Virus record (IMG/VR): IMGVR_UViG_3300044712_001937
Coordinates: 203,681 to 267,680 of that record
Source: a virus
Direction: 5' to 3' (one strand)
Length of the DNA: 64,000 nt
Part shown: piece after piece, positions 147 through 26,268 of the stretch
Layout of the letters: every line of letters starts with the position of its first letter
How positions within the stretch are numbered: the first letter of the stretch is position 1
Notes under the pieces: generated by a model
Seen by the model: the letters and a program-made list of their open reading frames with translations, nothing else
Told to the model about the DNA's origin: nothing
The model's database searches: none
Translations under genes and position numbers: made by a program

Positions 147-965
147 ATGGCAAAAAAGACTAATATAAAACAAGCTAAAATTAATCCTAAATTAACTCCG
201 GAACTGCATAAATCTATGTTGCTTATGCGTGATTTGGCTGATATGGAGAAAAAGGTTGCAGCAGGTTTAATTCCCACAAATCCAACACGTATATTTAAGG
301 TTGATGAACGTATTCAGTTTGGTGCGCATAAAGAAACATATATTCGTGAGGTATATGATAATGGATTATACTATAAAATTGAGAGTTTAAACGTTCAACG
401 TGAAAGGAATAATCCACCTCAGAATGAATTTCATATTATTGAGTGGGTGAGTTTATTTCCAATTAAATTTGAACCCACTAATTTCACTAAAATTGAGGAA
501 TATAGGATAAGGCAATATAATTCAAGCATTGATTCGTTATTATCAATGGTTTACCATTCCGGAGTTGACTTCGATGTTGAATATCAACGTGAACATGTTT
601 GGAAACTGGAAGATAAAATAAATTTAATTGATTCTATATTCAATAATATTGAGATTGGTATGTTTGTATTTGTGGAAAGAGAATATCCATATACTAAACG
701 TCTTGAAATTATCGATGGTAAACAGAGATTAACTGCAATTCATGAATTTTATGAAGATAGATTTCAATATAAAGGATATTATTTTTCGCAATTATCCAAT
801 CCAGATAAGAATAAATTTACAAGTCATGGTATTGCTTATGGTCAATTGGAAAATCCTACAAGGAAGGCTATTTTGGAGACCTTCATTAAAATGAATACTT
901 GTGGAAAACCAATGGAAAATAAACATATTGAAAATGTAAAGGAATTGTTAAAAACTGTTGAATAA
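147..965 (+). CDS. DUF262 (ParB/Srx-like, GmrSD N-terminal type) domain protein
   Basis: 272-aa ORF. It contains 'YQREHVWKLEDKINLIDSI...IIDGKQRLTAI', which matches the DUF262 signature (QR.YVW...LIDSI...DGQQRLTTL). No DUF1524/HNH half is present. Confidence 0.6.
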   Translation: MAKKTNIKQAKINPKLTPELHKSMLLMRDLADMEKKVAAGLIPTNPTRIFKVDERIQFGAHKETYIREVYDNGLYYKIESLNVQRERNNPPQNEFHIIEWVSLFPIKFEPTNFTKIEEYRIRQYNSSIDSLLSMVYHSGVDFDVEYQREHVWKLEDKINLIDSIFNNIEIGMFVFVEREYPYTKRLEIIDGKQRLTAIHEFYEDRFQYKGYYFSQLSNPDKNKFTSHGIAYGQLENPTRKAILETFIKMNTCGKPMENKHIENVKELLKTVE

Positions 966-5346: not shown

Positions 5347-6522
5347 ATGAGTGAAAATATTAAAGAACAAGGAGTACTTCATTTTTCATTAGGTGAGGAA
5401 TTTGGAATCAGATTAATGGAGATTGCACAGGAACATCTTATATATGGTTATAATCCAGTTAAAGCAGTTGCTACCATTACTGATGGTCTTATTGGTTGTC
5501 CTTATGATTTTGCGTTAAAAATATTAAAAGGCGATATCGTTTTATTTGTTGAAGGTGATGGATTAATAGCTACTGAACGTACAAGTGAAAACGATAAAAT
5601 ATTTCCGAAACTGGATATCCAAAACTGGATAACACGTAGACATAATGATATTGTTGAACATGGTGAAGTTTTAAAATCTGAATTAAAAACATTTCAATCC
5701 AAAATTCATAGAGATAATTACAAATTTGAAATGAATTTTGATTATGATTCAATATTTAAATTCATTGCCGGAAACGATAATATAATTCTCGATGAATTAA
5801 GAGATAACAGCGATATAAAACAAATTGAATTACTTATCTCTGTTACCAAAAAATACATTGACCATTCCTTGCAAATTAAATCCGCAATGGAATGGATTGT
5901 TAATACTTGGGGCGATGAAGATGAAGAATATTCTAATATTATTGATGAGTGTTCGGATTCTTTAATGAATGTAATGAATCTTTTAAAAGATACATTATCT
6001 TTAGATTTTGATTTTGGTCTTATCGAAGATGACGAATTAGCTTCTTTTGTTGAAAACACAATTGAAATTGATAATATTATATCCAAAGGGATTGAACCAG
6101 TTGATATTATGGATAATTACTCTGCGGGTTGGTTAAGTCCCGAAGGTGTATTTTATGGATTAAATGGTGATATAGCTAATATGTTGCATCAACAAATTGC
6201 AGATGCTTTAGTGGAAATAAATATAATTCCTGAAAATTATAAAGAAAATGCTGTTAATCCAGATTCTTGGTTAGCTAAAAATGGTTGGGTTAAAATTCAT
6301 GGAAATAATATTCAGTTTGAAGGTTGTTTAAATTACAGACTACAAAGTAAAAATATTAATTTGAGCAATAAACAAATTAATATTGTGAAATGTTATATTA
6401 ATTATTGTCATTCAGGAATTATGCGATTGGGTTGGAAATTGATTCCAGTAAGTGCAGCAAGATTTGAAATGATGGCAGAAGAGGATATTATTGCTTTGAA
6501 TAAAGAATATTTTGAATATTAA
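5347..6522 (+). CDS. Hypothetical protein (391 aa, acidic)
   Basis: Long ORF preceded by the cassette and followed by a decayed cassette at 6522-6560. I recognise no motif. Confidence 0.5.
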   Translation: MSENIKEQGVLHFSLGEEFGIRLMEIAQEHLIYGYNPVKAVATITDGLIGCPYDFALKILKGDIVLFVEGDGLIATERTSENDKIFPKLDIQNWITRRHNDIVEHGEVLKSELKTFQSKIHRDNYKFEMNFDYDSIFKFIAGNDNIILDELRDNSDIKQIELLISVTKKYIDHSLQIKSAMEWIVNTWGDEDEEYSNIIDECSDSLMNVMNLLKDTLSLDFDFGLIEDDELASFVENTIEIDNIISKGIEPVDIMDNYSAGWLSPEGVFYGLNGDIANMLHQQIADALVEINIIPENYKENAVNPDSWLAKNGWVKIHGNNIQFEGCLNYRLQSKNINLSNKQINIVKCYINYCHSGIMRLGWKLIPVSAARFEMMAEEDIIALNKEYFEY

Positions 6523-11900: not shown

Positions 11901-13420
11901 AATGTATTACATATTAAAGATGGAGAACTTATCAATATCTTACATAATAGTGCATTAGATAAAGAAAAACTAATTAAAATTAGTGATGAAGAGTTTGCAG
12001 ACCAATTGAAGACTACCATTTTTAATTTAGGAATTTACGCATATACTGAAAACAAAGAATAAATTTAACACTATGGAAACTATTACACTTTTAATCATTT
12101 TTGGACTTAAAACTTGGTCTATAATCTACTCATTAATGTTACTATTCATAATAATAGTTCGTATTTGGAATAAAGATTTTAATTTTAATATAGAGTATAA
12201 AGAAAGTTTTATTTTTACTTTTTATTTTATGTCACTATATGCATGGACTTTGTAACATTTTATATTTAATCTCGTATATTAAATAAAATATAATTTAGGA
12301 TATGGAAATTTTTCTTACATATAATACTGATGAACTGCATTCATTGCTTTTGAAAATATATTATGGAATTAAAGAAACTGCCAAAGATGGTGCTTTCTCC
12401 CATGTTCGAAGTAAATCAAACGAAAATCACAATTCATATCATTTTCAACATTTAGTTGAAAATTCGAATTCAACTATTGATAATTTAAAAGCATTTTATC
12501 CTGAAACTGATAGTAGAAGAAATTGTTTCAAACATATTATTTTAGAGGAATTTGAACAAGAAGCTGAAAGGTTTTTAAACTCAGATATTTACTAAATATG
12601 TATGATATTAAGATAACTAAACCAATATTAAATCTATTCAACGAATGTTTAACAAATGTTGAATTCTTGAATGATTTAGAAAAATTTGACCCAGATTATA
12701 AAGGTAATGAACCAACCAAAAATATGAGTGATTTTAAAAAGGTTATTTATGCATGTGTTTATGAAGGTTGGTTAATTGGAAGAAAAGAATATGATGAAAA
12801 TAAATATCGATAATAAACTAAAAACTAATAATATAGTGTTTATATTTAGAGAAATCGTAAAAAACAAGAGTTTTATTTAACTGTAACTGCCGGAACTAAT
12901 TTAGGTAATTATTTACCAATTGGTCATTACGTAAAAGAAACTTATCGTGATGGTTCATATAAATGGTTTAAAGTTACTGAACGCAATGATAAATTTAATA
13001 AGTTTCCTCTTGAATTAGTTGAGGAAGAACAAGCTAATCTTCTTGATGAACTTCAACTTCAATATTTAAAAGAAGTTTACGGTAAAGATTCCGAATTAGT
13101 AGAAAAATATCTATAAAAATAATTAACATGAAAAATAAAAATTTTGTAATTTCTAATACTCCAGCAAAACTACCAATTCAAAGTACTATTTTATATTCAT
13201 TTTTACTTTATTATTTTAATGTAGATAATCTTTGGTGGGGTATTTTCATCACATTAATGTTAATTTGGTGGGCAATATCATTTTATGCAATATTCCACCA
13301 AGTTATAATTGATTTAAATTCAAATAAATTGGATGAAAATCTTGAAAAGATTGAAAATAAAAGTAATTTTGTTTTAATTTTACAAAATTTAATTAAAGAA
13401 TTTAATAAAAATAAGTAATA

Positions 13421-13732
13421 ATGGGATTAAAAACTTGGCAATTATCATCAGATGAAAATTTGACTGATGATGACAGACGAAAAATTGCAAATGAAATTAT
13501 CCAAGGCAGTAATGGTGGAATGTTTTATAGTGTACTTGAAAATAAAACTTCAAATCAATTAAACGAAATTCATTCTATTACACCAATTAGTATTATTGAT
13601 GACTGTAAAGCTTTAATTAAACAAGGTAGCATCTTAGCAGCAGTTAAATTCTATAAAGAAGAAACTGGCACAGGTTTAAGAGAAGCTAAAGATTTTATCG
13701 ATAATTTACGTGAAGATTTAAAAAATAATTGA
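13421..13732 (+). CDS. Small protein whose C-terminus resembles the ribosomal L7/L12 C-terminal domain
   Basis: 'LAAVKFYKEETGTGLREAKDFIDNL' resembles the L7/L12 CTD consensus 'IKxVRxxTGLGLKEAKDLVE'. Confidence 0.3.
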   Translation: MGLKTWQLSSDENLTDDDRRKIANEIIQGSNGGMFYSVLENKTSNQLNEIHSITPISIIDDCKALIKQGSILAAVKFYKEETGTGLREAKDFIDNLREDLKNN

Positions 13733-13736
13733 AAAT

Positions 13737-15185
13737 ATGAGTGATATTATCTTAACAAGAAAAATAAAACTTGGTGTTTATGTTCCAGAAATTATTGTTG
13801 ATGAAAAAGAACGTAAAACATATAAAGATTTTGTTTGGAGTTTATTACGGAATATTAATCGACAGAATTTTGAATTTCATAATCTATTAGTAAAAAAACT
13901 AATTGAAATTGATGCTATAATTTCCTCTCGATTAAGTGTAGATGATAAATTTATCAAATTAAAAAATAATTATTTTAAAGATAAAAAAGTATCAAAACCT
14001 TATTTTGATTATATCAAACAAACACAAAAAGAATATATTGAATCGTTAAGTTATAAAAATATTAATTCTTATATTTATAATTATTTAGTTCAATATATTA
14101 AATCATTATCTGATGAACAACAATTAATTAATTCATATTCTTATTGCGCAATATCTAAAAATGTTTGTGATAAATATAATGATGATTTATTTGATGTAAA
14201 TAGAGGTATAAAAAACGTTGCCTTTTATAAAAATACTCAACCAATTCCTATTAATATAAAAGCACCTTCATATATTGATGAAAAAGGAGTTAAATCAAAA
14301 TCATTGGGAAAGTTTTGGTTTAATAAACATGAAGATAAATATGTCTTTAAATTTAAATCTTCAAAAAAACATGATATTGAATTATTACTTTTATTTGGTA
14401 AAGATAGAAGTAATAATAGAATTATGATTGATAGAATCTATAATAATGATTCTAATTATAAAATTTGTGATTCTGATATTCAAATTATAGATAATGAAAT
14501 ATTTTTATTATTAACAATAAAACAATTTAATATTGAAAATAAAATTCTCGATAAAAATAAGGTATTAGGAGTTGATTTAGGTATTAAATGTGCTGCATAT
14601 ATTGCTACAAATAATTCATTAGAAAGACAACAAATAGGTTCTAAAGAATTTGTACTATTAAAAACTAAATTGCAAATTGAAAAAGATAAAAGATTACTTC
14701 AACGAAATTCAATATTTTCAAAATCAGGGCATGGAAGAACAAGAAAACTTCAAAAATTAAATGATTTTAAAGAATATGAAAAGAATTTTAGAAATACTTT
14801 TAACCATCAAATATCTTCTGAAATTATAAGTCATGCAATTAAATGGAATTGTGGTCAAATTAATGTAGAAGATTTATCAGCAATACCTTTAGAAGAAAAA
14901 AATAAAAGAATTCTTCGTAATTGGGCATATTTTGATTTATTAAATAAAATTGAATATAAAGCTAAAAAAAATGGAATAAACTTTTTAAAAGTTAATCCAG
15001 CATATACATCCCAAATATGTAATGTTTGTGGGAAAAAAGGTGAACGAATAAAACAAGATACTTTTATTTGTATTAATCAGGATTGTAAATTTCACGATAA
15101 ACCAATTAATGCAGATTATAATGCAGCAATTAATATTGCAAAAAATATTAACATAAAAAAAGAAGAAATTGTATCAATATCCTAA
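13737..15185 (+). CDS. TnpB/Cas12f-like RNA-guided nuclease candidate (split RuvC plus zinc finger), directly upstream of a CRISPR array
   Basis: RuvC-I 'KVLGVDLGIK' (D280). 'SGHGRTRKLQK'. RuvC-II 'INVEDLS' (E378). TnpB hallmark 'NPAYTSQICNVCG'. Zinc finger CxxC...CxxxC ('CNVCG...CINQDC'). RuvC-III 'NADYNAAINIA' (D460). The N-terminal region is about 270 aa, longer than canonical TnpB and in the Cas12f size range. There is no adjacent tnpA. Confidence 0.8.
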   Translation: MSDIILTRKIKLGVYVPEIIVDEKERKTYKDFVWSLLRNINRQNFEFHNLLVKKLIEIDAIISSRLSVDDKFIKLKNNYFKDKKVSKPYFDYIKQTQKEYIESLSYKNINSYIYNYLVQYIKSLSDEQQLINSYSYCAISKNVCDKYNDDLFDVNRGIKNVAFYKNTQPIPINIKAPSYIDEKGVKSKSLGKFWFNKHEDKYVFKFKSSKKHDIELLLLFGKDRSNNRIMIDRIYNNDSNYKICDSDIQIIDNEIFLLLTIKQFNIENKILDKNKVLGVDLGIKCAAYIATNNSLERQQIGSKEFVLLKTKLQIEKDKRLLQRNSIFSKSGHGRTRKLQKLNDFKEYEKNFRNTFNHQISSEIISHAIKWNCGQINVEDLSAIPLEEKNKRILRNWAYFDLLNKIEYKAKKNGINFLKVNPAYTSQICNVCGKKGERIKQDTFICINQDCKFHDKPINADYNAAINIAKNINIKKEEIVSIS

Positions 15186-15406
15186 AATTATATTATATTT
15201 GTATCATCATTTTGAATTTAAGTTCTTTGATATAATTGATATTATTGTTTTTAGTTAAACAATAATTATGGCTGGTTGTACAGCCAAAAGTGAGGTCGAA
15301 ACCTAAAAAATGAATAATTTTGAGCAAAGTTTCATAGAACACTCACTAAATATCTTTCATTATTTTTAAATAAAATATTAATTTACAACAAATTACATAA
15401 AGGTAT
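15186..15406 (+). other. Non-coding region between the nuclease gene and repeat 1: candidate leader, tracrRNA or omega-RNA scaffold
   Basis: Contains the hairpin ggctggttgtacagcc (15270-15285). The 40 nt before repeat 1 hold repeat-like fragments ('atttacaac', 'aaatt..aaaggta'). Confidence 0.3.
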
Positions 15407-15771
15407 GTTGTAAACAACCACAAATTGAAAGGTACTTACAACTATTTGGACATAGAAGTACTGATTATATCAGTTGTAAACAACCACAAATTGAAAGGTA
15501 CTTACAACTCATTACTTACCTGCCTTTCTTTTATCTAAGTTGTAAACAACCACAAATTGAAAGGTACTTACAACGTGCTGGTAGTCCTCAGATTCGTTTA
15601 ATTGTTGTAAACAACCACAAATTGAAAGGTACTTACAACTATTCAATATACAAGAAATGTATTAAAAGAGTTGTAAACAACCACAAATTGAAAGGTACTT
15701 ACAACCTATGGTTAGGATACTGTTATTTTTTTCATGTTGTAAACAACCACAAATTGAAAGGTACTTACAAC
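15407..15771 (+). CRISPR. CRISPR array with 6 identical 36-nt repeats (GTTGTAAACAACCACAAATTGAAAGGTACTTACAAC) and 5 unique spacers (30, 30, 29, 30, 30 nt)
   Basis: Repeats lie at 15407, 15473, 15539, 15604, 15670 and 15736. Each repeat has 7-bp inverted termini GTTGTAA/TTACAAC. The spacers share no similarity with each other. Confidence 0.95.
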
Positions 15772-15806
15772 AGTAGGAGAAGTTCGGGTTCGATTCCCAC
15801 TACTCT
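15772..15806 (+). other. tRNA-like minihelix fragment immediately after the last repeat (GGTTCGATTCC T-loop-like core flanked by agtag/ctact)
   Basis: 'agtaggagaagttcgggttcgattcccactactct' contains a TTCGATT loop and a 5-bp closing stem. It is too short for a tRNA. Confidence 0.25.
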
Positions 15807-15820
15807 ATTAAAATTAATTT

Positions 15821-15916
15821 GGTGCTGTTTGTAATGTTGGCTATACATTTTGTCCATGAAGCGTAAAGTGAAGTATGGCAAGCTCAACGTAGGTTCAATT
15901 CCTACCAGCACCACCA
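15821..15916 (+). tRNA. tRNA-like element (96 nt, encoded CCA) with non-canonical anticodon and variable region
   Basis: Perfect 7-bp acceptor stem ggtgctg/cagcacc, discriminator A plus CCA. Perfect T-arm gtagg-ttcaatt-cctac. D-stem tgta/taca with a GG loop. I could not fold a canonical anticodon arm in the 41 nt between the D-arm and T-arm. Confidence 0.35.
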
Positions 15917-16114
15917 AAAAACCAACCGTTATACAGTATAAGCACTGATGTACCTAATAGTGAAGGTGTGATATGCATGAAAGCAAATTATTGTTGTGGG
16001 ACGGCAATGGTTGTACAGGGAGTGTACCCTACACTCATAGGGACTGTGTAGATAAATCCTTTACTTGACTGGAAACTCATTTATGAAGAATCAAAAGGTC
16101 AGGTAAAGGATTTT

Positions 16115-17551
16115 TCATAAATTTGGATATATGGTGTTATAACATAATTGAGCAATTAATTTATGTCCAAGATTTGTACTATGTACTTTATCGTTTAAAT
16201 AGTAAGTTGTATTATCGGCATCAACCAATCCATTAAAAGCTGCATTAGTTGTAATAGGAATTGATATATAATTATTTTCTATTTGACCATTATCTATTAG
16301 AATATTTAACGCCTGTGATATAGTCCAAAAAGTATCCCATTGACCTGCTGTATACCCAGCAGGTTTCATTGGTCTATTATGTATAACATATGTTTTAAAA
16401 CCTTTAGCATTAGATGCGTTAACCAAGTTTATGATGTTAGCATAAATATAATTTTCATTTTTACCCGAAATTAAATCATTAGCACCAATCCAAATAATAC
16501 TTATATTTTTTTGATAAGACAAGTTATAAGCTGCATCTAAATGTGCTTGATAGTTAATTTTCATATCATCACTATTTTGACCGGGGACTGCATCATTAGT
16601 TAATATTCTCATTTTAGCCCCCATTAACAGAGTTTTCAGTTCAGTAGGATAATCTGTAGTAGCTCCTGCATATGCATAACTTAATGAATCACCATCAGTT
16701 AATATATTAATGGAATATGGAATTTTGGGTGTTATTGAATCAACAAGCAAATACTCAAAATCATCGGAAATTGTTTTGTTTAATTTTGAAAAAATAAAAA
16801 AATCAGCAGTAGTACCATTACAAGAAAAAGCAGCTCCATTGTTTCGAGAAAATAAATTAAGTGTATTTGTTGTATTTGAATTAGCAATTAATGTTCCATT
16901 TCTACCAGATAATATTAAATTTCTATTTTTGTACAATTCAGCTCTATCATCATTATATATCCATCGAGCTATCATTTTATCTAAACCCCAATTAGTAACA
17001 GTTGCATTACCTCCATTATCTACAGTAGTACGTCTTACAGCCCATGTATATCCATAATTTTGATGTAAATAATTTCCGTTTACTGATAAAACATTTGTTC
17101 CATGTTCCATCATAAGCCCAGCAGGTGCTTGGAAATTGCCAGTTAGAAAGACATCTATCCAAGTTGGTAATACTAATCCAGCAATATTAGATGTTTTATT
17201 AGTAACATTTGCCGATGGTTTGTTATTTAAAGTAACATCAGTGATATTGTATAAATATTGTTTTGCTGTATCAGTTTGTATTTCATGAGCTGTAGAAAAT
17301 AAATTATATCTTTTTACAATCTTATTATCTGTAATTTTTATTCCTGCCCTTGTTGATAATCCAACTAATCCTGACGAATTAATATTATTATTTTTACAAA
17401 ATTTTAATATATTATTTACATAATTTAAATCATTAATAATTCCTCCATCTGCTTCAACCATCTTCTTATATAATAATGTTTCAGATAACAATATATCATC
17501 ATTTCTTCCAACTCCAATTTTATTTGCAATACCAATAGTTAAACGTCCCAT
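16115..17551 (-). CDS. SGNH/GDSL-family hydrolase with an N-terminal approximately 280-aa domain of unknown fold; possible receptor-modifying esterase or tail-associated protein
   Basis: Block I 'ILTDGDSLSYAY', block III 'IIWIGANDL', block V 'DKVHSTNLGH' (DxxH). It sits in a minus-strand island inside the + block. Confidence 0.65.
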   Translation of the reverse strand: MGRLTIGIANKIGVGRNDDILLSETLLYKKMVEADGGIINDLNYVNNILKFCKNNNINSSGLVGLSTRAGIKITDNKIVKRYNLFSTAHEIQTDTAKQYLYNITDVTLNNKPSANVTNKTSNIAGLVLPTWIDVFLTGNFQAPAGLMMEHGTNVLSVNGNYLHQNYGYTWAVRRTTVDNGGNATVTNWGLDKMIARWIYNDDRAELYKNRNLILSGRNGTLIANSNTTNTLNLFSRNNGAAFSCNGTTADFFIFSKLNKTISDDFEYLLVDSITPKIPYSINILTDGDSLSYAYAGATTDYPTELKTLLMGAKMRILTNDAVPGQNSDDMKINYQAHLDAAYNLSYQKNISIIWIGANDLISGKNENYIYANIINLVNASNAKGFKTYVIHNRPMKPAGYTAGQWDTFWTISQALNILIDNGQIENNYISIPITTNAAFNGLVDADNTTYYLNDKVHSTNLGHKLIAQLCYNTIYPNL

Positions 17552-17554
17552 ATA

Positions 17555-17845
17555 TTATCTTCCAACTTGAATAATTGTTGCAGTATTACCACTATGAGCA
17601 ATTATTTTTTTACATTTTATGATATTCCAACCATCACCAGCATTGCTAAATTTAGTACGAATTGATTGGTTTTGATTTAATGGAACAACTGTTAACATAC
17701 CTTCATCACCATTTACTTTAATATAAAAACCAAAACCTGAATTATCAATATAACTTTCAGTAAGTAAATTTACACCAATATCTATACATTCTGATACATT
17801 TCCTATATCACTATCTTTATTACTTGTTAAATAATTTTGTGCCAT
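17555..17845 (-). CDS. Hypothetical small protein co-oriented with the SGNH hydrolase
   Basis: 96-aa ORF that ends 3 nt before the start of the SGNH gene. Confidence 0.35.
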   Translation of the reverse strand: MAQNYLTSNKDSDIGNVSECIDIGVNLLTESYIDNSGFGFYIKVNGDEGMLTVVPLNQNQSIRTKFSNAGDGWNIIKCKKIIAHSGNTATIIQVGR

Positions 17846-20800
17846 ACTTATTAAATTTATTAATAAATACTTAATTTATTATAAAATATATTGATATATG
17901 TAACTAAAATTTTTTAATTTCGTATATTTACCTGAAATTAAATCATTATTTATATGGAAGCTAATTTTGAACATGAAACAATTAAAATTCCTGATTTTAT
18001 TTTACTTAAAGAAAGTATTAAAGAAAATAAACAATTATTAGTTCAGATTGGTCAGTTAAAAGGTGAAATTGATTATTTAAATAATTGTATTAAAGAACTA
18101 CAAATAAAAGATAAAATTACCCAAGGTAATGAAATTGTCGCTAAAATAAAAAAAGAAGAAATGTATACGTTATTAAAAAAACGTAATAATCAATTAGCTA
18201 AAAGAGTAAATAGGCAACTTAAAATAATAAGTAATTTATCTGCTCAAAATATTCAACTTCAAAATAATATTGATTCATTAAAACTTTCTAATGATTTCTC
18301 TTTATTTATACCATTAGATAAAGTAAACAAACTTTAAATAATATTAGTTTATGAATAAAGTATATGTGAATGGTTTTGTCTGGTATGCTGATATAAGCAA
18401 TAGAATGCTCTATGAAGATTTAAATAAAACATCCGGTACTTCATTTAAATTTCTTACTGATAATGAAATCAAACAAATTAATGATTCTATTAAATATCCA
18501 CGTAAATCTTAACATATGAAAAATACAAGTTTCGCTTTATATTATATATTAATTTCTATATTTGGTATTGCAATCTTATATATTTTATATATTTCTGTAA
18601 TTAATCCATTTTCCGGTGTTAATCAAAAAGTTGTTAATGGAAATTTAATCACAACAGGCATTTATAAAGGAAAAGAAATATTCATATTTAAAGATACTAT
18701 TCATAGTTTTAGTAATGATACAATAAAATACATTCGATATCATCAGGCATTAAATGAAATTAATGCATATGTTAGATTTGAAACCAAAATATGTAAATAA
18801 TTATGAAATATCAAATTCTCGCAATTATACATGTTAAATCTGATTTTCCTAAACTTCTGGAGTTTGGAATGGAACATACAGATTTAAATGATTCTATTGA
18901 AGCAATGAAGATTTGTGATTCAGAAGGTGATGCTCATAAATTCTTAATTGAAAAAGCTAAATTATATAATGAAAGACATTTCGGAAATGAAACCGATTTG
19001 AAATTAATGCTCAATGAAATTGAAATGGGTTGTTTAACTCTTAATGGAGTTACTGCCTACATTTCCGAAGTAGAAGAATGTTATATTATTAGAGTTAAAG
19101 AATCCGGAACTGAAATTCAACATTACGATAATATTGAAGATGCAAGAATTGGACTTTCAACTTTTGAAGATATTGATATTATTGAAGGAAATTATACTGA
19201 AAACTATTATGAAATTTTTGATACTTTAACCAATAAAATTGTTGAGTGATGGTAAATAGTTTAAATAGCCGAATTGTAGAATTAACCAAAATGATTGATG
19301 AGTTTGATAAAAAATTTGGAGAAATAGATGTTAAAACATTAAATCCAAAAGATAGAACTGCATTAGTTAAACTCAAAAAACAGATTAATAAATTTCGTCA
19401 ACAAAAAAAATCAATGCAAGATACATTGAATATGATGAAAAAATTTGGTGCAACTGATATAATAATTGGTGATTAGTAGATTTTACATAGATAAACTACA
19501 AATACTCGATTATCTATTCATAATTTGCAACAATTTCATTTGAAATTCGTAATTCAACAAAACATTAAAACAATTTCAATATGAAAACATTATTTAAAAT
19601 CTTAATAGTATTAATCATTGCACTATTCGTAATTGATTATTTTCATCCTGATGGAAAGATATTCCATAAAGCAGGTAAAGTTGGAAAAACAATCATAAAA
19701 GAAGCTCCTGCCAAAATAGGTAAAGCCTATAATGAGGTTAAAGAAGGTGTTCAAGACTCAACCAAATAAGATAAAAATGGAAGGAACATATTTCGTAATC
19801 AGAAATTCAGATGGTGAAACTACTGTCAGAATTATAAGTAAAGAACAATTACTTGAAGATATTGAAAATGGTGAGTTTGGAGATGTATTGACGGAAATTC
19901 CCGAAAACTCCGATACTAATTATTGGGGAGAAAGTGTACTTATAATTAAAGGAAAATTAGTAGTACCAATAGCAGAACAAGTAGTGACTAAATACAGTAT
20001 TGAATAAATTTAATTAAAATATATGATAAAGAAAAAATGGAAATGGGTAATTGACCAATGGTTAGAAGATAAAGTTTGGGTGAATATTCCAAAAGAACAT
20101 CAAAGTCCTCATTTTTTCTTTTTACTTGGTTTTGTAACAGCAATCATAATTTTTACTCTTATAACTTTAATTTAAAATATTAACAGCATATGGGCAATGC
20201 AATGAACCCACAATAATCGATAATGTTTCTGTCTATTGTGGTTATTTAATATTGGTAACACTTATAATTTATGATGGGTCGTGAAGTAAAAAATCAAAAA
20301 GGTGAATATTTTACACTTACTGAAGATGAAGAAAAATATGTAAGAGCATTAGAACGATTAAGTAAAATGAATCCCGGAAGAATACAACTAATGGCAAACG
20401 GTACAATTAGTATCCGAATAAATGGAATATGGCATAACGATAGCATAGATGGACATCATAAAGCATTTTCAATTCAATGCGAAGGCGGTGACGGGGGTGA
20501 TAATTATTAATTTCTTTTTAACTTATATATTAAATAAATTACCATAAACCTTAATAAAATAAATATTATGCCAACAATTAAAATTGAAAAAACATTCGAG
20601 ATTAGCAACCAAGATATTGAAGACCTTTTAGTTACAGCATTTGAAGGTGGAATAAATTATTGGTGTGATAAAGTTATCATTAAAGAATATCCGGAGTCAT
20701 TAGAAGATAAAAATATGTTAGCTTCTGATATATTGGCTCATGGTGCAGTTTTAACTTTATGTGATGCTGAAAGTTCTGATAAATGGGATTTAACATTAGA

Positions 20801-21730: not shown

Positions 21731-21767
21731 AAAAACCCATGTAAGATTACATGGGTTTTTTTATTTA
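21731..21767. terminator. Bidirectional hairpin terminator (cccatgtaagattacatggg) between convergent genes
   Basis: Same hairpin family as at 1388, 4765 and 5283. It is flanked by an A-run and a T-run, so it can work on both strands. Confidence 0.6.
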
Positions 21768-22661
21768 ATACTTAATTCTTCCATCCACACTCCCATCATT
21801 ACGGATAGATAATTTTTTACCGCATCCTTTACATTCATATCTTATTGAATTACCTCTCTTTCCATCTTTAACAATATGATTACTTCCACAATACTTACAA
21901 ATCATGTTTCTATCTATTACCTTATCAACTGGCTTATAATTTAAACATTTATCTTTTTTTCTTTGTAAACTAATATTAGCATCTTTATATATAAAATCAA
22001 TAAGTTTAAGTATTTCAGATGTTTTAATAAAGACTAATTGATATACTATTTGTTTACTTTTACCTCTTGGTAATTTTTCATTTATATTCCAACAATTAAT
22101 ATCGATTGATTTTAAGTATGAATCTAATTCATAAATAAATGTTTTTGAAACTGAACAAAACTCAATGGTTATTAAATTTTTTCTTTTAGCTCTGATATAA
22201 ATGCTACCATCAGCATCAAAAAATCCTCTAATAAAATGAGAAATTAAATTTTCATTAATATCCGGAATTTTTAACATTTCTTTATTTTCATATGATTTTC
22301 TTGGGTAAACTCCATTATTTAATAAATCATGATAAAGTTCTTTTGAAGATTTAGCTAATGATTTTTGTTTCCCTGAATTTTTATTATGCTTAGAAAAATC
22401 ATATTCTCCAAGATTGAAGAATGGGAAATTTTCATGTAGTGAATATATTAAATTTTCATCATCTTTATGAATTGAAATCCTTGTTAAAAATCTAATTCTA
22501 TTATTTTTCTCAACATAATTACTAATAGTACCATCACCATACATAAATCCTAATAAATATGCTTTTTCTTGAGTATCAATTTTTTCTAATTCTCTATTAT
22601 ATTCCATATATTTAAATTTTCTATAAATACTGTACACATATACAAAAAACCACCAAATCAT
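21765..22661 (-). CDS. LAGLIDADG homing endonuclease with a C-terminal zinc ribbon
   Basis: Two LAGLIDADG-type motifs, 'LLGFMYGDGT' and 'IRGFFDADGS'. C-terminus 'CKYCGS...CKGCGK'. It is a minus-strand island. Confidence 0.7.
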   Translation of the reverse strand: MIWWFFVYVYSIYRKFKYMEYNRELEKIDTQEKAYLLGFMYGDGTISNYVEKNNRIRFLTRISIHKDDENLIYSLHENFPFFNLGEYDFSKHNKNSGKQKSLAKSSKELYHDLLNNGVYPRKSYENKEMLKIPDINENLISHFIRGFFDADGSIYIRAKRKNLITIEFCSVSKTFIYELDSYLKSIDINCWNINEKLPRGKSKQIVYQLVFIKTSEILKLIDFIYKDANISLQRKKDKCLNYKPVDKVIDRNMICKYCGSNHIVKDGKRGNSIRYECKGCGKKLSIRNDGSVDGRIKY

Positions 22662-22731: not shown

Positions 22732-25017
22732 ATGATTATCAATATAGATAAATTTTCAGACCAAGAAACAGTTTCAACATGTGAAGAAAATGATATTGTA
22801 TTATCAAAGGATTCTCAAAGTATGTTTTTTTCATTATTCACAAAAAACATATACTCAAATCCAATTGGTAGTATAGTTCGTGAAATAACTTCAAATTGTT
22901 TTGATAGTCATATTGAAGCTGGTTGTAATATGCCTGTTTTAATTAAAAAAAGTATAGAAAAAGATACTAATACAAATTACATATCGTTTATCGATTATGG
23001 TGTTGGAATGTCACCTGAAAGAATAGATAAAGTATTTAGAGTGATGTTTTCATCAACAAAACGCTCAGATAACGCACAAATAGGGGGCTTCGGACTCGGT
23101 TCGAAAAGTTGCCTTGCTTACAAGCGTAGCACAGGTTTTGGCGAAGGTGAATATGACAATTCGTATTATATTATTACAGTATATGATAAGATTAAATACA
23201 TATACAATATATATGAAGGTCAAAAATGCCCAAAAATATCCTTACTTCATAGTGAACCAACCGAAGATGGTAATGGTACAGAAGTTAAAATTCCTGTATT
23301 AGAAAAAGATTTACGTACATTCGAATATGAAATGATACGTCAATTATATTATTTCGAAAATATTATTTTTGAAGGTTTCGACAGCACTAAACTTACAAAC
23401 GATTATCAAATTATCAGGGGAAAATCATTCCTATTCAGAGGTAATGAATACAAAGATTCAATCCATGTTTGTTTAGGTAGGGTTGCATATCCTTTAGATT
23501 ATAATACTTTAGGTTTAAACGAATCAGATTATCGTTTACCTGTAGCAATTAAATTAAATGTTGGTGATATAAATGTTGTTGCCAGTCGTGAAGGTTTAGA
23601 TTATTCTGAAAAAACTATTAAGGTAGTTAAAGCTAAACTGGAAGAAGTTAAAAGTGAAATTATTGGTTTGATTTCCAAACAATATGAGAACATTGTTACA
23701 TTGGAAGATTATTTTAAAGTTAAATCTAAGTTTGGATTTCTTTATTTCTCAAACGGTTTATCTATTAATGTAGGTAATGTTATTAGTGTTAAAGATATTA
23801 ACTATAAAAACTTTCGATATAATTCACTTAAATCAATTCCAAAAGATACTGAATTATTTAAGCTGTTTTTCAATGTTGAAGCTTATGGTAAAAAATTAAA
23901 TAAGAATGTACACCGTAGAACCATATTTTTTGATGGAAGTTTCGATGAAATTCTAAGAAAAAATTTCGTTTACTATATAGATACTCCAATGGAACGTAAA
24001 AGAATTAAACGTGCTTATATGAAGTCTCTGCATGAAACATATTTTGTAATTAGGAAAAATAATTTCATTCATTCAACTAATAGAGAAACAATTTGTGATT
24101 TGTTCAATGTTAATTTTAACAGTTTTTACAATAAATCAACTGATGGTCAATGTACGGAACTTACTGATTTTTCAAAAACATTGTTAATGTTAAGAGATGA
24201 GTTGTTTGAAATTGTTACAAAATATCGTCAGGATTATAATGAAGTTAATGTTCCGGAAAATTTCATTCTTGAAAAGAAAAGAAATATTATCGATACTAAG
24301 ATACTTAGAGAAACTAAAATTCAAGTTAAATTCTTTGGTGTCAGTGGTAAAGATAAAGTTAAATTATCAGCATTGTTCGATTTAAACATTCCAATTTTTT
24401 ATGGTTCACAGGATGATGAAAATAAATTAAACAATGCCAGATATATTCATACTACATTGTTCGGTGGTGGGTCAATGATTTCATATTATGAAGAATATGG
24501 TAATAAAATTAACTTTAATTCAGATAAAAAGGGTATATTGTTCATAATGTTAAGTAAGGGTAATTTAAAATATATGCAATATTGCAAAAAAGCTTACCAT
24601 ATAGATAATTATTACTGGAAAATGCTTCATCGTAAAGCTGACATGGTTTATGATTACTTCAACAGTTTTGAATTTATTCAATCATATCAAAACTTATCAT
24701 CAATGTACAAGTCTAATAAGTTTGATATAATTAATAAAGATTGGGGACGTAAAATTAAAAAAGTTAATGAATATTATCAAAAAATAATTTCAAATAAAAA
24801 TAAAAATATTGGTGATATTCGTCAATACTTAACTCCTTATTTTAATTTATCTAATTTAAATCAAAGTACTGAAAATAAAAAAATAAGCAGTATACTTGAT
24901 GATATTTATAAATTAAAAACTGCTAATGAAAAATCTATTAGGTATATTAATATGCCAAATGATTTTTCAACAGATGAAGTATTAATTGATATATTAAAAA
25001 AAGTTATGATATTTTAA
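22732..25017 (+). CDS. Hsp90/HtpG-like GHKL-family ATPase (761 aa)
   Basis: N-box 'NIYSNPIGSIVREITSNCFDS' (compare Hsp90 'LYSNKEIFLRELISNASDA'). G1 'IDYGVGMS'. G2 'IGGFGLGSKS'. The rest of the protein is not recognisable to me. Confidence 0.5.
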   Translation: MIINIDKFSDQETVSTCEENDIVLSKDSQSMFFSLFTKNIYSNPIGSIVREITSNCFDSHIEAGCNMPVLIKKSIEKDTNTNYISFIDYGVGMSPERIDKVFRVMFSSTKRSDNAQIGGFGLGSKSCLAYKRSTGFGEGEYDNSYYIITVYDKIKYIYNIYEGQKCPKISLLHSEPTEDGNGTEVKIPVLEKDLRTFEYEMIRQLYYFENIIFEGFDSTKLTNDYQIIRGKSFLFRGNEYKDSIHVCLGRVAYPLDYNTLGLNESDYRLPVAIKLNVGDINVVASREGLDYSEKTIKVVKAKLEEVKSEIIGLISKQYENIVTLEDYFKVKSKFGFLYFSNGLSINVGNVISVKDINYKNFRYNSLKSIPKDTELFKLFFNVEAYGKKLNKNVHRRTIFFDGSFDEILRKNFVYYIDTPMERKRIKRAYMKSLHETYFVIRKNNFIHSTNRETICDLFNVNFNSFYNKSTDGQCTELTDFSKTLLMLRDELFEIVTKYRQDYNEVNVPENFILEKKRNIIDTKILRETKIQVKFFGVSGKDKVKLSALFDLNIPIFYGSQDDENKLNNARYIHTTLFGGGSMISYYEEYGNKINFNSDKKGILFIMLSKGNLKYMQYCKKAYHIDNYYWKMLHRKADMVYDYFNSFEFIQSYQNLSSMYKSNKFDIINKDWGRKIKKVNEYYQKIISNKNKNIGDIRQYLTPYFNLSNLNQSTENKKISSILDDIYKLKTANEKSIRYINMPNDFSTDEVLIDILKKVMIF

Positions 25018-25077
25018 GTAACAAATTCAAATTAATATCGTATATTTACGCAAAACAAAATAACTAAATATAAAATT

Positions 25078-26268
25078 ATGGCAAATAAAATAAGTATTCA
25101 CGTAGTTAAAACAGGTAATACTGTCCACATTAGTCTTGGTGGCAAGCTTATTGATAAAAACTGCGGTAATCCTAAAGAAGCTGATGAGTTATTTAAAATA
25201 GTTCTTGCTGCGAAGGAAAATCCAAGTGAAGATAACTTACGCAAAATTCGTGCATATGTAAATGAAAAATTGCGTGTAGCATATTTAACAGGATTAGAAC
25301 ATGACCCAGATACTGGTGAAGTATTCTTGGCAGGTTTCAATACCCCAATTCCTCAAACATTGGTTGATATTATCAGGGAGTATCACGAAAATAAATATCC
25401 GTTAACACCAATTTTTAACTTCTGGAAGTTATTAATGATTAATCCGGATAAGCGTGTACGTGAAAGTTTATTCAAATTTATTACTGCTCACGATTTCTCA
25501 TTAACAGATATGGGATATATGATTGTTTATAAAGCAGTATATTTAAAAGACCAAAAACCTGTTCGTGATACTACTTATGAAGATTTCATAAGCACTCAAT
25601 ATCTTCACGTAAAGAATAACTGGAAATGTAGTCCTAATAAATATGTGGTTTATAAAAACCTTGCAGATTTTACTTTTGCAATTACAAAATATGAAACTGC
25701 TAAGACTTGGGACGAAAAAGAAAAAAATATCGAAATTCTTGGTAAACTTGGCGATATCTATTCAGCCATTGTTGTTGAAGATAATAAACCGCTTCAATAC
25801 ACTGATATGTATTCCCAAACCATGACCATTGAACTTGGTGTACCAGCGAAGAAGGAAAGAAAAGATTGTGATGCTAATCCAGATAAGAATTGCTCTAATG
25901 GATTACATTGCGGTGCAACAAACTATGTAAGCAATTATGCCAAGAAGACAAGTCATATTCTTGTATGTTTTGTCAATCCAATGAATGTTATAGCAGTACC
26001 ACATTATAACCATTCAAAAATGAGGGTTTCAGAATATTTTCCATTCGCTTTAGCTGAATATGATTTTGATAAGAAAAAGATTTCAATTATTGAAGAAAAA
26101 TATTTCGAAAATGATTATAAAGCTTATGAAGTTATAGAACTCGAAAAATTGGTTACTAAAGTGAAATCAGAAGAAAAACCAATTGAAAAAGCACAAAATG
26201 CCGAAGATGAAGTACGTCCAATGTCTGAATTATTAAAAATTATTGAGGGAAGAATGATTGATTTATAA
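25078..26268 (+). CDS. Hypothetical protein (396 aa), preceded by the promoter motif and followed by a strong terminator
   Basis: It has the least AT-biased codon usage in the area. A TCGTATATTTACG motif lies upstream at 25037-25048 and a hairpin at 26289-26323 follows. Confidence 0.45.
   Translation: MANKISIHVVKTGNTVHISLGGKLIDKNCGNPKEADELFKIVLAAKENPSEDNLRKIRAYVNEKLRVAYLTGLEHDPDTGEVFLAGFNTPIPQTLVDIIREYHENKYPLTPIFNFWKLLMINPDKRVRESLFKFITAHDFSLTDMGYMIVYKAVYLKDQKPVRDTTYEDFISTQYLHVKNNWKCSPNKYVVYKNLADFTFAITKYETAKTWDEKEKNIEILGKLGDIYSAIVVEDNKPLQYTDMYSQTMTIELGVPAKKERKDCDANPDKNCSNGLHCGATNYVSNYAKKTSHILVCFVNPMNVIAVPHYNHSKMRVSEYFPFALAEYDFDKKKISIIEEKYFENDYKAYEVIELEKLVTKVKSEEKPIEKAQNAEDEVRPMSELLKIIEGRMIDL

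What the first reader, a model, noticed from the sequence alone, without database searches (positions are those of the whole stretch)
15407..15771. The array repeat looks like a Bacteroidota type VI-B (Cas13b) direct repeat, giving an alternative host-Cas-hijack reading
The repeat is 36 nt with 30-nt spacers. It starts GTTGTAA and ends TTACAAC, giving 7-bp inverted termini, and has an internal TTG.AAAGGTA segment. From memory, that is the architecture of Cas13b direct repeats (36 nt, GTTG...ACAAC termini, 30-nt spacers), for example GTTG...TTTTGGAGGGTAATCACAAC. If so, the array may be loaded into a host Cas13b, as a phage-encoded array targeting rival phage RNA, and the neighbouring TnpB-like gene may be a separate element. 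A Cas13b-compatible array on a phage and a Cas12f-like effector that has adopted a VI-B-like repeat would both be new.
Basis: partly seen in the sequence, partly recalled or inferred. Interest (0 to 1): 0.85.

Follow-up and report, generated by a model that had tools for sequence, protein, structure and literature searches.

The report
Phage Cas12f CRISPR array with tracrRNA
The array is real and its repeat does resemble Cas13b repeats, but it most likely belongs to the small Cas12f nuclease gene next to it, linked by a guide-helper RNA (tracrRNA) encoded between the two, so this is a new phage-borne example of a known miniature DNA-cutting CRISPR system and not a hijack of host Cas13b.

Summary
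Observation confirmed. There are six identical 36-nt repeats (GTTGTAAACAACCACAAATTGAAAGGTACTTACAAC) at 15407-15771, with spacers of 30/30/29/30/30 nt and 7-bp inverted termini. The resemblance to Cas13b repeats is also real. The pattern GTTG-N14-TTGAAAGGTA-N3-ACAAC retrieves true VI-B arrays, including that of Segatella buccae.

The hijack reading is not supported, for five reasons:
- The 482-aa neighbour is a Cas12f. Its best solved relative is Alistipes Al3Cas12f (E 6e-48), and the RuvC D/E/D residues and zinc finger are intact.
- About 70 of 80 homologues from metagenomes carry the same kind of 36-nt array next to the gene.
- The gap between gene and array encodes a tracrRNA. A covariance model built only from three published Cas12f tracrRNAs has its best window hit there (15256-15358, E 7e-4). 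Its two core helices covary across 31 loci.
- The tracrRNA 3' end (TATCTTTCA) pairs with repeat nt 20-28 (TGAAAGGTA). This leaves an 8-nt tail before the spacer, the same 9+8 geometry as in Al3Cas12f. Changes in the repeat are compensated in the anti-repeat in relatives.
- The repeat lacks the internal GCCTTT/AAAGGT stem of Cas13b repeats and scores +13.6 bits for the Cas12f class. The window has no Cas13b, Cas1 or Cas2.

No targets were found for the spacers. Verdict: a new member of type V-F, of modest interest.

The parts
13737..15185 (+). cas12f gene (482 aa), a type V-F effector
   Evidence: Pfam Cas12f1-like_TNB 5.9e-18 plus weak OrfB_IS605. NCBIfam guided_TnpB 148.7 bits. Best solved relatives are Al3Cas12f 9NZR/9NZO at E 6e-48, then six Cas12f-family chains at 1e-38 to 1e-40 (8J3R/8J1J/8J12, 8HR5, 7WJU, 8DZJ; identified as AsCas12f and SpCas12f partly from my own knowledge). 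The alignment keeps RuvC D (GVDLG), E (INVEDL), D (NADYNAA) and the CxxC...CxxxxC zinc finger. These residues are invariant or nearly so in 12 close homologues.
15230..15362 (+). Predicted tracrRNA. The 5' end is uncertain. The model-supported core is 15256-15358. Elements: hairpin 15243-15268, hairpin GGCTG-GTTGTA-CAGCC 15270-15285, and a long-range stem AGTGAG (15289-15294) with CTCACT (15342-15347). A T-rich run follows the 3' end.
   Evidence: A covariance model built only from the three published tracrRNAs (Al3Cas12f, MG119-3, MG119-2; PMC13186708 Supplementary Data 1) has its best hit in the 64-kb window here: 28 bits, E 6.8e-4, against 17.8 bits and E 0.12 for the next hit. The two core helices covary in 31 sequences: 95.4% of cells paired against 75% in shuffles, 9 of 14 pairs with compensatory changes, score 0.596 against 0.201 (0/500), slid controls at most 0.186.
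15351..15359 (+). Anti-repeat of the tracrRNA (TATCTTTCA), complementary to repeat nt 20-28 (TGAAAGGTA)
   Evidence: A 9-bp duplex at -8.9 kcal/mol. Compensatory changes in relatives: L107 GAACGGTA/TATCGTTC, L042 GAATGGTA/TACCATTC, L039 GGGTAT/GTACCC, L153 TGGTAC/GTACCA, Al3Cas12f UCAAGUGAA/UUCACUUGA. Cognate duplexes are more stable than non-cognate ones; 2 of 5000 permutations reach the cognate mean.
15363..15406 (+). AT-rich spacer region or leader between tracrRNA and array. It contains repeat-like fragments (TTTACAAC, ACAAATT...AAAGGTAT) that abut the first repeat.
   Evidence: Read directly from the sequence. The related motif AACAAC(AG)CCACAAAAT lies upstream of the arrays in L039 and L042. 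Its function was not tested.
15407..15771 (+). CRISPR array: six identical 36-nt repeats and five spacers (15443-15472, 15509-15538, 15575-15603, 15640-15669, 15706-15735)
   Evidence: By homology with Al3Cas12f, each crRNA is predicted to be repeat nt 20-36 plus about 20 nt of the spacer downstream of it. Transcription on the + strand is required for pairing with the tracrRNA.

Best explanation
This is a self-contained, phage-borne type V-F (Cas12f) CRISPR locus lacking an adaptation module. It consists of the 482-aa Cas12f gene, a tracrRNA of about 110-130 nt just downstream, and a five-spacer array, all on the + strand.

Proposed mechanism:
- The array transcript pairs through repeat nt 20-28 (UGAAAGGUA) with the 3' anti-repeat of the tracrRNA (UAUCUUUCA).
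- The last 8 nt of the repeat (CUUACAAC) lead into the spacer that lies downstream of that repeat.
- The tracrRNA:crRNA pair is bound by Cas12f, which is probably a dimer as in solved Cas12f complexes.
- The complex recognises a probably T-rich 5' PAM and cuts double-stranded DNA with its RuvC site.
- The likely targets are competing phages or other mobile DNA.
- New spacers would have to be inserted by a host Cas1-Cas2 acting in trans.

What is shown here: the array; Cas12f homology with intact catalytic residues; the conserved gene-array linkage; the homologous, covarying tracrRNA; and the complementarity between anti-repeat and repeat.

What is inferred from characterised relatives: dimerisation, PAM, DNA cleavage, crRNA boundaries, targets and trans-adaptation.

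The likeness to Cas13b repeats reflects a repeat style common to Bacteroidota arrays (36 nt, GTTG...CAAC ends, 30-nt spacers). In the Cas12f lineage, the GAAAGGTA segment serves as the docking site for the tracrRNA.
For: **Protein.** Cas12f identity with intact RuvC and zinc finger.

**Conserved linkage.**
- In IMG/VR and GTDB, arrays matching the repeat pattern lie beside either Cas13b or homologues of the 482-aa protein.
- About 70 of 80 metagenomic homologues (31-61% identity) have an adjacent array of 36-nt repeats with a 65-66 nt period.

**tracrRNA.**
- The intergenic sequence aligns with published, experimentally validated tracrRNAs.
- A model built from those three alone has its top window hit at 15256-15358, E 6.8e-4.
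- Strong covariation in 31 sequences.

**Anti-repeat.**
- A 9-bp pairing followed by an 8-nt repeat tail, identical in geometry to the Al3Cas12f guide RNA (UCAAGUGAA + UAUCCAAC).
- Compensatory changes across loci.

**Repeat class.**
- Log-odds of +13.6 bits for the Cas12f class at the 17 positions the scan did not fix.
- Inner-stem energy is -0.9 kcal/mol, against a mean of -3.9 for Cas13b repeats.

**Activity in relatives.** Phages carrying an identical Cas12f protein differ in spacer content: none, or one of two different spacers.

**Context.** The window is phage-like (rIIA/rIIB, endonuclease VII, RNA ligase, homing endonucleases). The exact protein is on record on a 364.7-kb contig.
Against: - Nothing was tested experimentally. 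RNA ends, processing, PAM and cleavage are all inferred.
- The three-sequence tracrRNA model is weak. It gave no hit at E<=0.01 when run over 471 kb of related loci with default filters.
- The cognate versus non-cognate duplex difference is small in energy (-8.7 against -8.0 kcal/mol), because the GGTA core is widely conserved.
- The first 128 residues of the protein did not align with Al3Cas12f.
- No protospacer was found for any spacer, so the targets and the DNA-versus-RNA question remain untested.
- The close similarity to Cas13b repeats is explained only by inference.
Confidence: 0.87

Rival explanations
1. Host Cas13b hijack. The array is transcribed and its spacer-repeat units are loaded into a host type VI-B Cas13b to target rival-phage RNA. 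The Cas12f/TnpB-like gene is an unrelated neighbour.
For: The repeat shares length, spacer length, GTTG/CAAC ends and the 10-nt TTGAAAGGTA with true Cas13b repeats, 22-28/36 identical. Hosts of this repeat style are Bacteroidota, where Cas13b is common. Cas13b plus array does occur on viral contigs.
Against: - The gene-array-tracrRNA linkage is conserved and co-varies.
- The repeat lacks the GCCTTT/AAAGGT inner stem of Cas13b-associated repeats and scores +13.6 bits for the Cas12f class.
- The exact repeat is absent from 185,579 representative genomes and from IMG/VR.
- There is no Cas13b in the window.
Confidence: 0.03
2. Dual use. The array serves the phage Cas12f through the tracrRNA, and its transcripts can also be used by a co-resident Cas13b, because both systems read the same repeat style.
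For: The 3' halves of the two repeat classes are nearly the same, and the classes overlap at the margins. A TnpB-like-associated phage repeat (L013/L035) is 30/36 identical to a Cas13b-associated Dysgonomonas repeat (L050/L061). Leave-one-out scores of the two classes overlap for a few repeats. In Flavobacterium columnare, VI-B arrays depend on II-C Cas1-Cas2 in trans, and the repeats share GTTGT ends (PMC8092290). Cross-talk between CRISPR types in this phylum therefore has precedent.
Against: The window repeat itself lacks the inner stem. No Cas13b array with this repeat was found. There is no direct evidence of any kind.
Confidence: 0.05
3. Mobile TnpB element or decaying remnant. The gene is a transposon-type TnpB with its own omega RNA, and the array is an orphan or non-functional relic.
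For: Sources annotate the protein as an IS605 OrfB transposase. PHROGs and NCBIfam place it in TnpB-type families. The closest bacterial repeat (31/36) is in a decayed orphan array in Tenacibaculum agarivorans.
Against: - The six repeats are identical, which argues against decay.
- No TnpA or other transposase was found among 84 further ORFs.
- The non-coding RNA ends in an anti-repeat that pairs with the repeat, not in a fixed guide.
- The closest solved relatives are CRISPR-associated Cas12f nucleases with tracrRNAs.
- Spacer content varies among near-identical relatives.
Confidence: 0.03
4. Regulatory rather than nucleolytic role, as in the nuclease-dead Cas12f homologues of Bacteroidetes that recruit sigma-E for RNA-guided transcription.
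For: Such exapted Cas12f homologues exist in the same phylum (PMC13472631). Some related bacterial loci show scattered tracr-like modules instead of arrays.
Against: The RuvC D/E/D residues are intact and conserved. No Pfam family was found for the two short upstream ORFs or the two ORFs downstream of the lipase-like gene, and the adjacent downstream gene is a GDSL lipase-like protein. No sigma-factor family appears among the 25 Pfam families listed for 84 further ORFs. The locus has a regular multi-spacer array.
Confidence: 0.02

Closest known systems
Al3Cas12f / Cas12f-MG119 family (Alistipes sp. and gut-metagenome type V-F; Guan, Ocampo et al., Nat Struct Mol Biol 2026, PMC13186708; PDB 9NZO/9NZR)
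   Same: - Best solved-structure match, E 6e-48 over residues 129-471.
- Shared motifs: FG+D+SNNR, RuvC D/E/D and the zinc finger.
- Same tracrRNA architecture: a hairpin with a GUUGNA loop, a UGAGG...CACUC long-range stem, and a 3' anti-repeat.
- Same crRNA geometry: a 9-nt pairing segment plus an 8-nt ...CAAC tail, then the spacer.
- Bacteroidota setting.
   Different: - Only about 30% identical in the aligned part, and the N-terminal 128 residues did not align.
- The repeat and anti-repeat sequences differ (TGAAAGGTA/TATCTTTCA against UCAAGUGAA/UUCACUUGA).
- The central tracrRNA insert differs.
- The locus sits on a very AT-rich (about 26% GC) large phage, whereas the Al3Cas12f contig was assigned to Alistipes sp..
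- Nothing here has been tested biochemically.
Other characterised Cas12f1 nucleases (AsCas12f, SpCas12f, OsCas12f, RhCas12f, Un1Cas12f/Cas14a)
   Same: Miniature RuvC nuclease beside an array, dependent on a tracrRNA. Sequence matches of 1e-35 to 1e-40 to solved Cas12f-family structures including OsCas12f and RhCas12f, and about 1e-18 to Un1Cas12f/Cas14a.1 (the AsCas12f and SpCas12f entry assignments are partly from my own knowledge).
   Different: These come from Firmicutes or archaea and have different guide scaffolds. They are more distant in sequence than Al3Cas12f.
Type VI-B (Cas13b) CRISPR arrays of Bacteroidota, e.g. Segatella buccae PbuCas13b
   Same: 36-nt repeat, 30-nt spacers, GTTG...ACAAC ends and the shared TTGAAAGGTA decamer; 22-28/36 identical.
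   Different: - Cas13b repeats carry an inner GCCTTT/AAAGGT stem that is absent here.
- Cas13b uses no tracrRNA and takes the spacer upstream of the repeat (established knowledge).
- There is no Cas13b in the window.
- The effector here is a DNA nuclease homologue.
Phage-encoded compact type V systems (Cas12j/CasPhi, Cas12l/Cas-lambda, phage V-F-like effectors)
   Same: A large phage carries a small Cas12-type effector with a short array and no Cas1/Cas2. Phage-borne V-F1/V-U3-like effectors have been reported (PMC12607003).
   Different: CasPhi and Cas-lambda work without a tracrRNA and belong to other Cas12 branches (own knowledge). The match to Cas12j-type structures is only about 7e-7.

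Membership tests
Type V-F (Cas12f) CRISPR-Cas | Small (about 400-700 aa) TnpB-derived effector with a split RuvC domain and a zinc finger, related to known Cas12f | tested here: met
   482 aa. Pfam Cas12f1-like_TNB. PDB Cas12f hits from 6e-48 to 1e-35. D/E/D and CxxC...CxxxxC are kept in the alignment to 9NZR.
Type V-F (Cas12f) CRISPR-Cas | Effector gene adjacent to a CRISPR array, with the association conserved among homologues | tested here: met
   The array starts 222 nt downstream of the gene. About 70 of 80 metagenomic homologues, and the homologue-bearing IMG/VR and GTDB loci, have adjacent 36-nt-repeat arrays.
Type V-F (Cas12f) CRISPR-Cas | A tracrRNA with an anti-repeat that pairs with the repeat | tested here: met
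   Computational only. Model from published tracrRNAs hits 15256-15358 at E 6.8e-4. Covariation. A 9-bp anti-repeat:repeat duplex with compensatory changes in relatives. Expression was not tested.
Type V-F (Cas12f) CRISPR-Cas | Acts as a homodimer on one guide RNA; PAM-dependent dsDNA cleavage | not testable with these tools
   Inferred from Al3Cas12f and other solved complexes (PMC13186708).
Type VI-B (Cas13b) CRISPR array | A cas13b gene (two HEPN domains; about 1000-1200 aa in the references found here) next to the array or in the same genome | tested here: not met
   The largest ORF in the window is 761 aa and is rIIA-like. tblastn with a Cas13b gives E >= 0.42. No Cas family appears among the 25 most-matched Pfam and PADLOC families for 84 further ORFs. 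The rest of the 365-kb phage and the host could not be examined.
Type VI-B (Cas13b) CRISPR array | 36-nt repeat with GTTG...CAAC ends and about 30-nt spacers | tested here: met
   Bacteroidota Cas12f arrays share this feature, and II-C repeats share the GTTGT end, so it is not diagnostic.
Type VI-B (Cas13b) CRISPR array | Inner stem of the repeat (GCCYTT pairing with AAAGGT), seen in most of the Cas13b-associated repeats recovered here | tested here: not met
   Inner-part folding energy is -0.9 kcal/mol for the window repeat, against a mean of -3.9 for 20 Cas13b-associated repeats. Position-weight log-odds is +13.6 bits towards the Cas12f class.
Type VI-B (Cas13b) CRISPR array | Recognition and processing of the repeat by Cas13b | not testable with these tools
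   Needs in vitro binding and processing with a Cas13b from the host or a related bacterium.
IS200/IS605 TnpB transposon | TnpB with a single omega RNA ending in a fixed guide at the transposon end, usually with TnpA or in multiple copies | tested here: not met
   There is a multi-spacer array instead of a fixed guide. The RNA ends in an anti-repeat. No transposase family appears among the 25 Pfam families listed for 84 further ORFs. The protein sequence has only one tblastn match in the window.

The most novel reading that the evidence does not exclude
Bacteroidota Cas12f (V-F) and Cas13b (VI-B) arrays may form one interchangeable repeat class, maintained by a shared adaptation machinery acting in trans. 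A phage array like this one could then be read by two effectors. The phage's Cas12f would use it through the tracrRNA, taking the spacer downstream of each repeat, to cut DNA. A host Cas13b would use it directly, taking the spacer upstream of each repeat, to cut RNA. One transcript would then arm both a DNA-targeting and an RNA-targeting system.
Probability: 0.05. Interest if true: 0.8.

Novelty: new member of a known kind. Interest (0 to 1): 0.3.

Why it matters
For genome annotation, a gene that sources label "IS605 OrfB transposase" on a roughly 365-kb phage contig is really a complete miniature CRISPR-Cas12f locus with a tracrRNA. The naive repeat-based call (VI-B) would have been wrong. 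Repeat length, GTTG/CAAC ends and even a shared 10-mer do not identify the CRISPR type in Bacteroidota. The neighbouring effector and the tracrRNA anti-repeat do.

For biology, this adds a divergent, phage-borne branch to the Al3Cas12f-like group of compact nucleases. That group is of practical interest as small genome editors. The predicted guide RNA is given here and can be tested directly.

The near-identity of the 3' halves of V-F and VI-B repeats in one phylum is a modestly interesting lead. It could reflect shared spacer-acquisition machinery or array exchange between CRISPR types.

Tried and rejected
- **Exact repeat.** Scans of IMG/VR and of 185,579 representative genomes found nothing, so neither host nor close relative could be identified that way.
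- **The search for related loci.** With the single protein in IMG/VR it found no confirmed relative. An alignment query on metagenomes worked.
- **Contig look-up.** Looking up the window protein (P0001) by exact sequence returned no record, so the sample and environment stay unknown.
- **INPHARED phages.** No DNA similarity for 13000-18000. Only chance-level matches (E >= 1) for the array and its spacers.
- **Protospacers.** The 22-nt repeat-proximal parts of spacers 1, 2, 3 and 5 have no exact match in IMG/VR. No match with up to 5 mismatches for any spacer in the window or in 1.29 Mb of fetched loci. Spacer 4 was not scanned in IMG/VR.
- **Inverted-repeat search.** A generic search of 13000-16200 did not flag the short anti-repeat. 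It was found by comparing homologous loci.
- **Three-sequence tracrRNA model.** It gave no hits at E<=0.01 over 471 kb of related loci with default filters. Motif anchoring and a hand-built core alignment were used for the covariation count instead.
- **Rfam.** No CRISPR repeat family and no known RNA family above threshold in 15150-15950. There was only a weak DUF2693-RNA hit, 22.8 bits against a gathering score of 81.
- **Spacers from related arrays.** Their matches to the window and other loci were only 16-18-nt chance-level hits, apart from one 29/29 match between two contigs of one MAG.
- **Sigma-70 promoter and terminator scan.** Not informative: 18 promoter-like sites against 22 expected. 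These organisms use other promoter types.
- **Rejected readings.** A TnpB transposon, a nuclease-dead regulator, and an orphan array; reasons are given under the rival explanations.

Full report
**1. The observation**

Window 15407-15771 (+) holds six exact copies of the 36-nt unit GTTGTAAACAACCACAAATTGAAAGGTACTTACAAC. Spacers are 30, 30, 29, 30 and 30 nt. Allowing three mismatches finds no further copy in the window, and none is expected by chance. The ends GTTGTAA/TTACAAC pair in the predicted fold, although the repeat as a whole folds no better than shuffled sequence (z = -1.0).

**2. Is the repeat Cas13b-like?**

In part, yes. I scanned IMG/VR and one genome per species of GTDB with GTTG-N14-TTGAAAGGTA-N3-ACAAC. 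These are the 19 positions the window repeat shares with the Prevotella buccae Cas13b repeat as I recalled it.

- The scan returned 37 viral and 58 genomic loci. Nearly all of the genomic ones are Bacteroidota.
- They include the Segatella buccae ATCC 33574 array, with the recalled repeat in 17 copies.
- Many of these arrays lie beside genuine Cas13b genes. One example is a 1012-aa protein on viral contigs that scores 640 bits on the NCBIfam VI_Cas13b model and 3e-52 against PbuCas13b 6DTD.

The resemblance is therefore real and not a trick of memory.

The same scan also returned a second class of arrays. These lie beside 440-510-aa homologues of the window's 482-aa protein. The two classes differ in the middle of the repeat.

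- Cas13b-associated repeats carry GCCYTT, which pairs with the AAAGGT of the shared decamer.
- Cas12f-associated repeats mostly carry ...ATCACAAT... and lack that stem.

At the 17 positions the scan did not fix, the window repeat scores +13.6 bits towards the Cas12f class. Its inner part folds at -0.9 kcal/mol, against a mean of -3.9 for 20 Cas13b repeats and -1.3 for 13 Cas12f-class repeats.

Raw identities:

| Compared repeat | Identity |
|---|---|
| P. buccae Cas13b | 22/36 |
| Closest Cas13b-associated | 28/36 |
| Closest Cas12f-associated | 29/36 |
| Decayed orphan array, Tenacibaculum agarivorans | 31/36 |

The exact repeat occurs in neither collection.

**3. The neighbouring gene**

ORF 13737-15185 (+) matches Pfam Cas12f1-like_TNB and NCBIfam guided_TnpB. 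Its best solved relatives are Cas12f nucleases:

- 9NZR/9NZO at E 6e-48. These are Al3Cas12f from an Alistipes sp., a Bacteroidota gut bacterium.
- Six further Cas12f-family chains at 1e-38 to 1e-40 (8J3R/8J1J/8J12, 8HR5, 7WJU, 8DZJ), which I take to be AsCas12f and SpCas12f.
- RhCas12f (9NZP) and OsCas12f (9NZQ) at about 1e-35 to 1e-36.

The alignment keeps the three RuvC carboxylates (GVDLG, INVEDL, NADYNAA) and the zinc finger. These residues are invariant or nearly so among twelve close homologues. The protein therefore looks like an active nuclease. It does not resemble the nuclease-dead Cas12f homologues of Bacteroidetes that drive sigma-E transcription.

**4. Is the gene tied to the array?**

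- A database search found about 990 homologues.
- A metagenome scan with an alignment of the closest twelve returned 80 loci at 31-61% identity. About 70 of them have a 36-nt-repeat array with a 65-66 nt period directly up- or downstream.
- The repeats vary widely at the 5' end. They keep a 3' half of the form ...GAAAGGTAYATCCAAC or ...GTGAGGTACATCCAAC.
- Phages carrying an identical protein (P0007) have either a lone repeat or two repeats with one of two different spacers. This shows spacer turnover.

**5. The tracrRNA**

Comparing the gene-array gaps of the window, L039, L042, L107 and others showed a conserved structured stretch. The Al3Cas12f paper gives experimentally supported guide RNAs for Al3Cas12f, Cas12f-MG119-2 and -3 (PMC13186708, Supplementary Data 1). 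The window sequence aligns with them and has the same elements:

- a hairpin with a GUUGNA loop (window GGCTG-GTTGTA-CAGCC; Al3 GGCGC-GUUGGA-GCGCC);
- a long-range stem UGAGG...CACUC;
- a 3' anti-repeat.

A covariance model built only from the three published sequences has its best hit in the whole 64-kb window at 15256-15358 (+), at 28 bits and E 6.8e-4. The runner-up scores 17.8 bits, E 0.12.

I also made a core alignment of 31 distinct sequences, with the variable insert removed. On it:

- The two helices pair in 95.4% of cells, against 75% in shuffles.
- Nine of 14 pairs show changes on both sides.
- The covariation score is 0.596 against 0.201 (0/500 shuffles). Slid controls reach at most 0.186.

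**6. The anti-repeat explains the "Cas13b-like" decamer**

The tracrRNA 3' end UAUCUUUCA (15351-15359) pairs over 9 bp with repeat nt 20-28, UGAAAGGUA. That leaves 8 nt (CUUACAAC) before the spacer. The Al3Cas12f guide has the same layout: UCAAGUGAA pairs with UUCACUUGA, followed by UAUCCAAC and the spacer.

Where relatives changed the repeat, the anti-repeat changed with it:

| Locus | Repeat segment | Anti-repeat |
|---|---|---|
| L107 | GAACGGTA | TATCGTTC |
| L042 | GAATGGTA | TACCATTC |
| L039 | GGGTAT | GTACCC |
| L153 | TGGTAC | GTACCA |

Over 50 distinct pairs, cognate duplexes are more stable than non-cognate ones. Only 2 of 5000 permutations reach the cognate mean, though the energy difference is small.

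The pairing needs the array to be transcribed on the + strand. It also implies crRNAs of the repeat-then-spacer kind, the opposite order to Cas13b.

**7. Context**

- The window is about 26% G+C.
- It encodes rIIA/rIIB, endonuclease VII, RNA ligase, MazG, NADAR and LAGLIDADG homing endonucleases.
- The exact protein is on record on a 364.7-kb contig. This is a large phage.
- No Cas family appears among the 25 most-matched Pfam and PADLOC families for 84 further ORFs of 95 aa or more. tblastn with a Cas13b finds nothing.
- Spacer acquisition would therefore have to use host machinery.

In Flavobacterium columnare, VI-B arrays acquire spacers through the II-C Cas1-Cas2 in trans. II-C and VI-B repeats share the GTTGT end across species (PMC8092290). 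It is a reasonable inference, untested here, that Bacteroidota Cas12f arrays belong to the same repeat style for the same reason.

**8. Targets**

No protospacer was found in INPHARED, in IMG/VR for spacers 1, 2, 3 and 5, or in the window and fetched loci. What the phage aims at remains unknown.

**9. Verdict**

The locus is a phage-borne type V-F system made of Cas12f, a tracrRNA and a five-spacer array. It is a divergent relative of the characterised Al3Cas12f/MG119 nucleases.

The host-Cas13b-hijack reading is not supported. It is a property of a known family and not a new kind of system. Phage-borne V-F-like effectors have also been reported before.

A small residual possibility of cross-use by Cas13b remains. 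I rate it at about 5%.

Noticed in passing
L004-L007, L010, L012, L016, L022, L024, L026-L028, L031, L036 (IMG/VR); e.g. L005 3169-6204 and 6273-6374: Viral contigs of 14-50 kb carry a 1012-aa Cas13b (NCBIfam VI_Cas13b, 640 bits) with a 2-8-repeat array. A tape-measure gene lies about 3.5 kb away. Type VI-B therefore appears on phages or prophages, where type VI is said to be rare.
   Followed up: partly
window 15772-15805 and 15821-15916: The sequence right after the last repeat looks like the 3' half of a tRNA (GGTTCGATTCCC plus an acceptor strand), but it is not called as a gene. A 96-nt tRNA-like gene follows. ARAGORN calls it tRNA-His(atg), and Rfam tRNA scores 29.5 bits, just at threshold. 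The array may have been inserted into or beside a tRNA cluster. With repeat-then-spacer crRNAs, the terminal repeat would yield a guide made of this tRNA-like sequence.
   Followed up: no
L038, L041, L105, L106 versus L039 and L040 (about 5640-5830 in L038-L041): Phage contigs that encode the identical Cas12f protein (P0007, on 67 contigs) carry either a lone repeat with no spacer, or two repeats with one of two different spacers. This shows recent spacer gain or loss.
   Followed up: partly
L071 5300-6850 (Pedobacter cryoconitis); L048, L074 (Sphingobacterium); L057 (Parapedobacter): Several tracrRNA-like modules in tandem, and isolated repeats 0.3-1.6 kb apart, take the place of a regular array. 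These may be natural single-guide units, possibly related to the dCas12f-sigmaE systems described in Bacteroidetes.
   Followed up: no
L035 1-1700 and L013 (one IMG/VR contig of 104 kb); L050/L061 (Dysgonomonas MAG): A different TnpB-like clade (guided_TnpB, 241 bits) sits beside eight or more repeats GTTGTGTATGGTCTTCATTTGAAAGGTAATTACAAC. These are 30/36 identical to a Cas13b-associated Dysgonomonas repeat. Its intergenic region has the same GTTCTTTGA motif and a TCTTTCAAAT complementary to the repeat. Arrays of this repeat style seem to have been paired with TnpB-type effectors more than once.
   Followed up: partly
window 15413-15425 (inside each repeat) and 15383-15406; L039 about 5610-5640; L042 about 5645-5665: The motif AACAAC(AG)CCACAAAAT lies upstream of the arrays in the closest relatives. 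In the window it sits inside the repeat itself (AAACAACCACAAATT). Repeat-like fragments also abut the first repeat. This suggests leader-repeat recombination.
   Followed up: no
window 15222-15232; also L039, L042, L107, L113, L035 upstream of the tracrRNA: A conserved GTTCTTTGA(T/C)AT motif precedes the tracrRNA in many loci. It may be a promoter element or the 5' part of the transcript. Rfam gives a weak, sub-threshold hit to DUF2693 RNA at 15222-15302 (22.8 bits against a gathering score of 81).
   Followed up: no
L094 6505-7116 (-), Tenacibaculum agarivorans: A decayed orphan array with mutated repeats and irregular spacing. Its consensus is the closest bacterial match to the window repeat (31/36). 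No Cas12f or Cas13b lies within the 8-kb locus. It hints at a Flavobacteriaceae-like host range.
   Followed up: partly
window 147-965, 21765-22661, 22732-26268: A GmrSD_N / NsnA-like protein, a LAGLIDADG homing endonuclease and an rIIA-rIIB pair. Other ORFs match endonuclease VII, RNA ligase, MazG, NADAR and SPFH/Band 7. This is a typical large-phage accessory region.
   Followed up: partly
L068 (spacer starting at 57) and L069 869-897 (same Bacteroidota MAG): A spacer of a Cas13b-style array (repeat of the Cas13b class; no effector was found within the locus) matches another contig of the same MAG at 29/29. This is a possible self-target or a prophage target.
   Followed up: no
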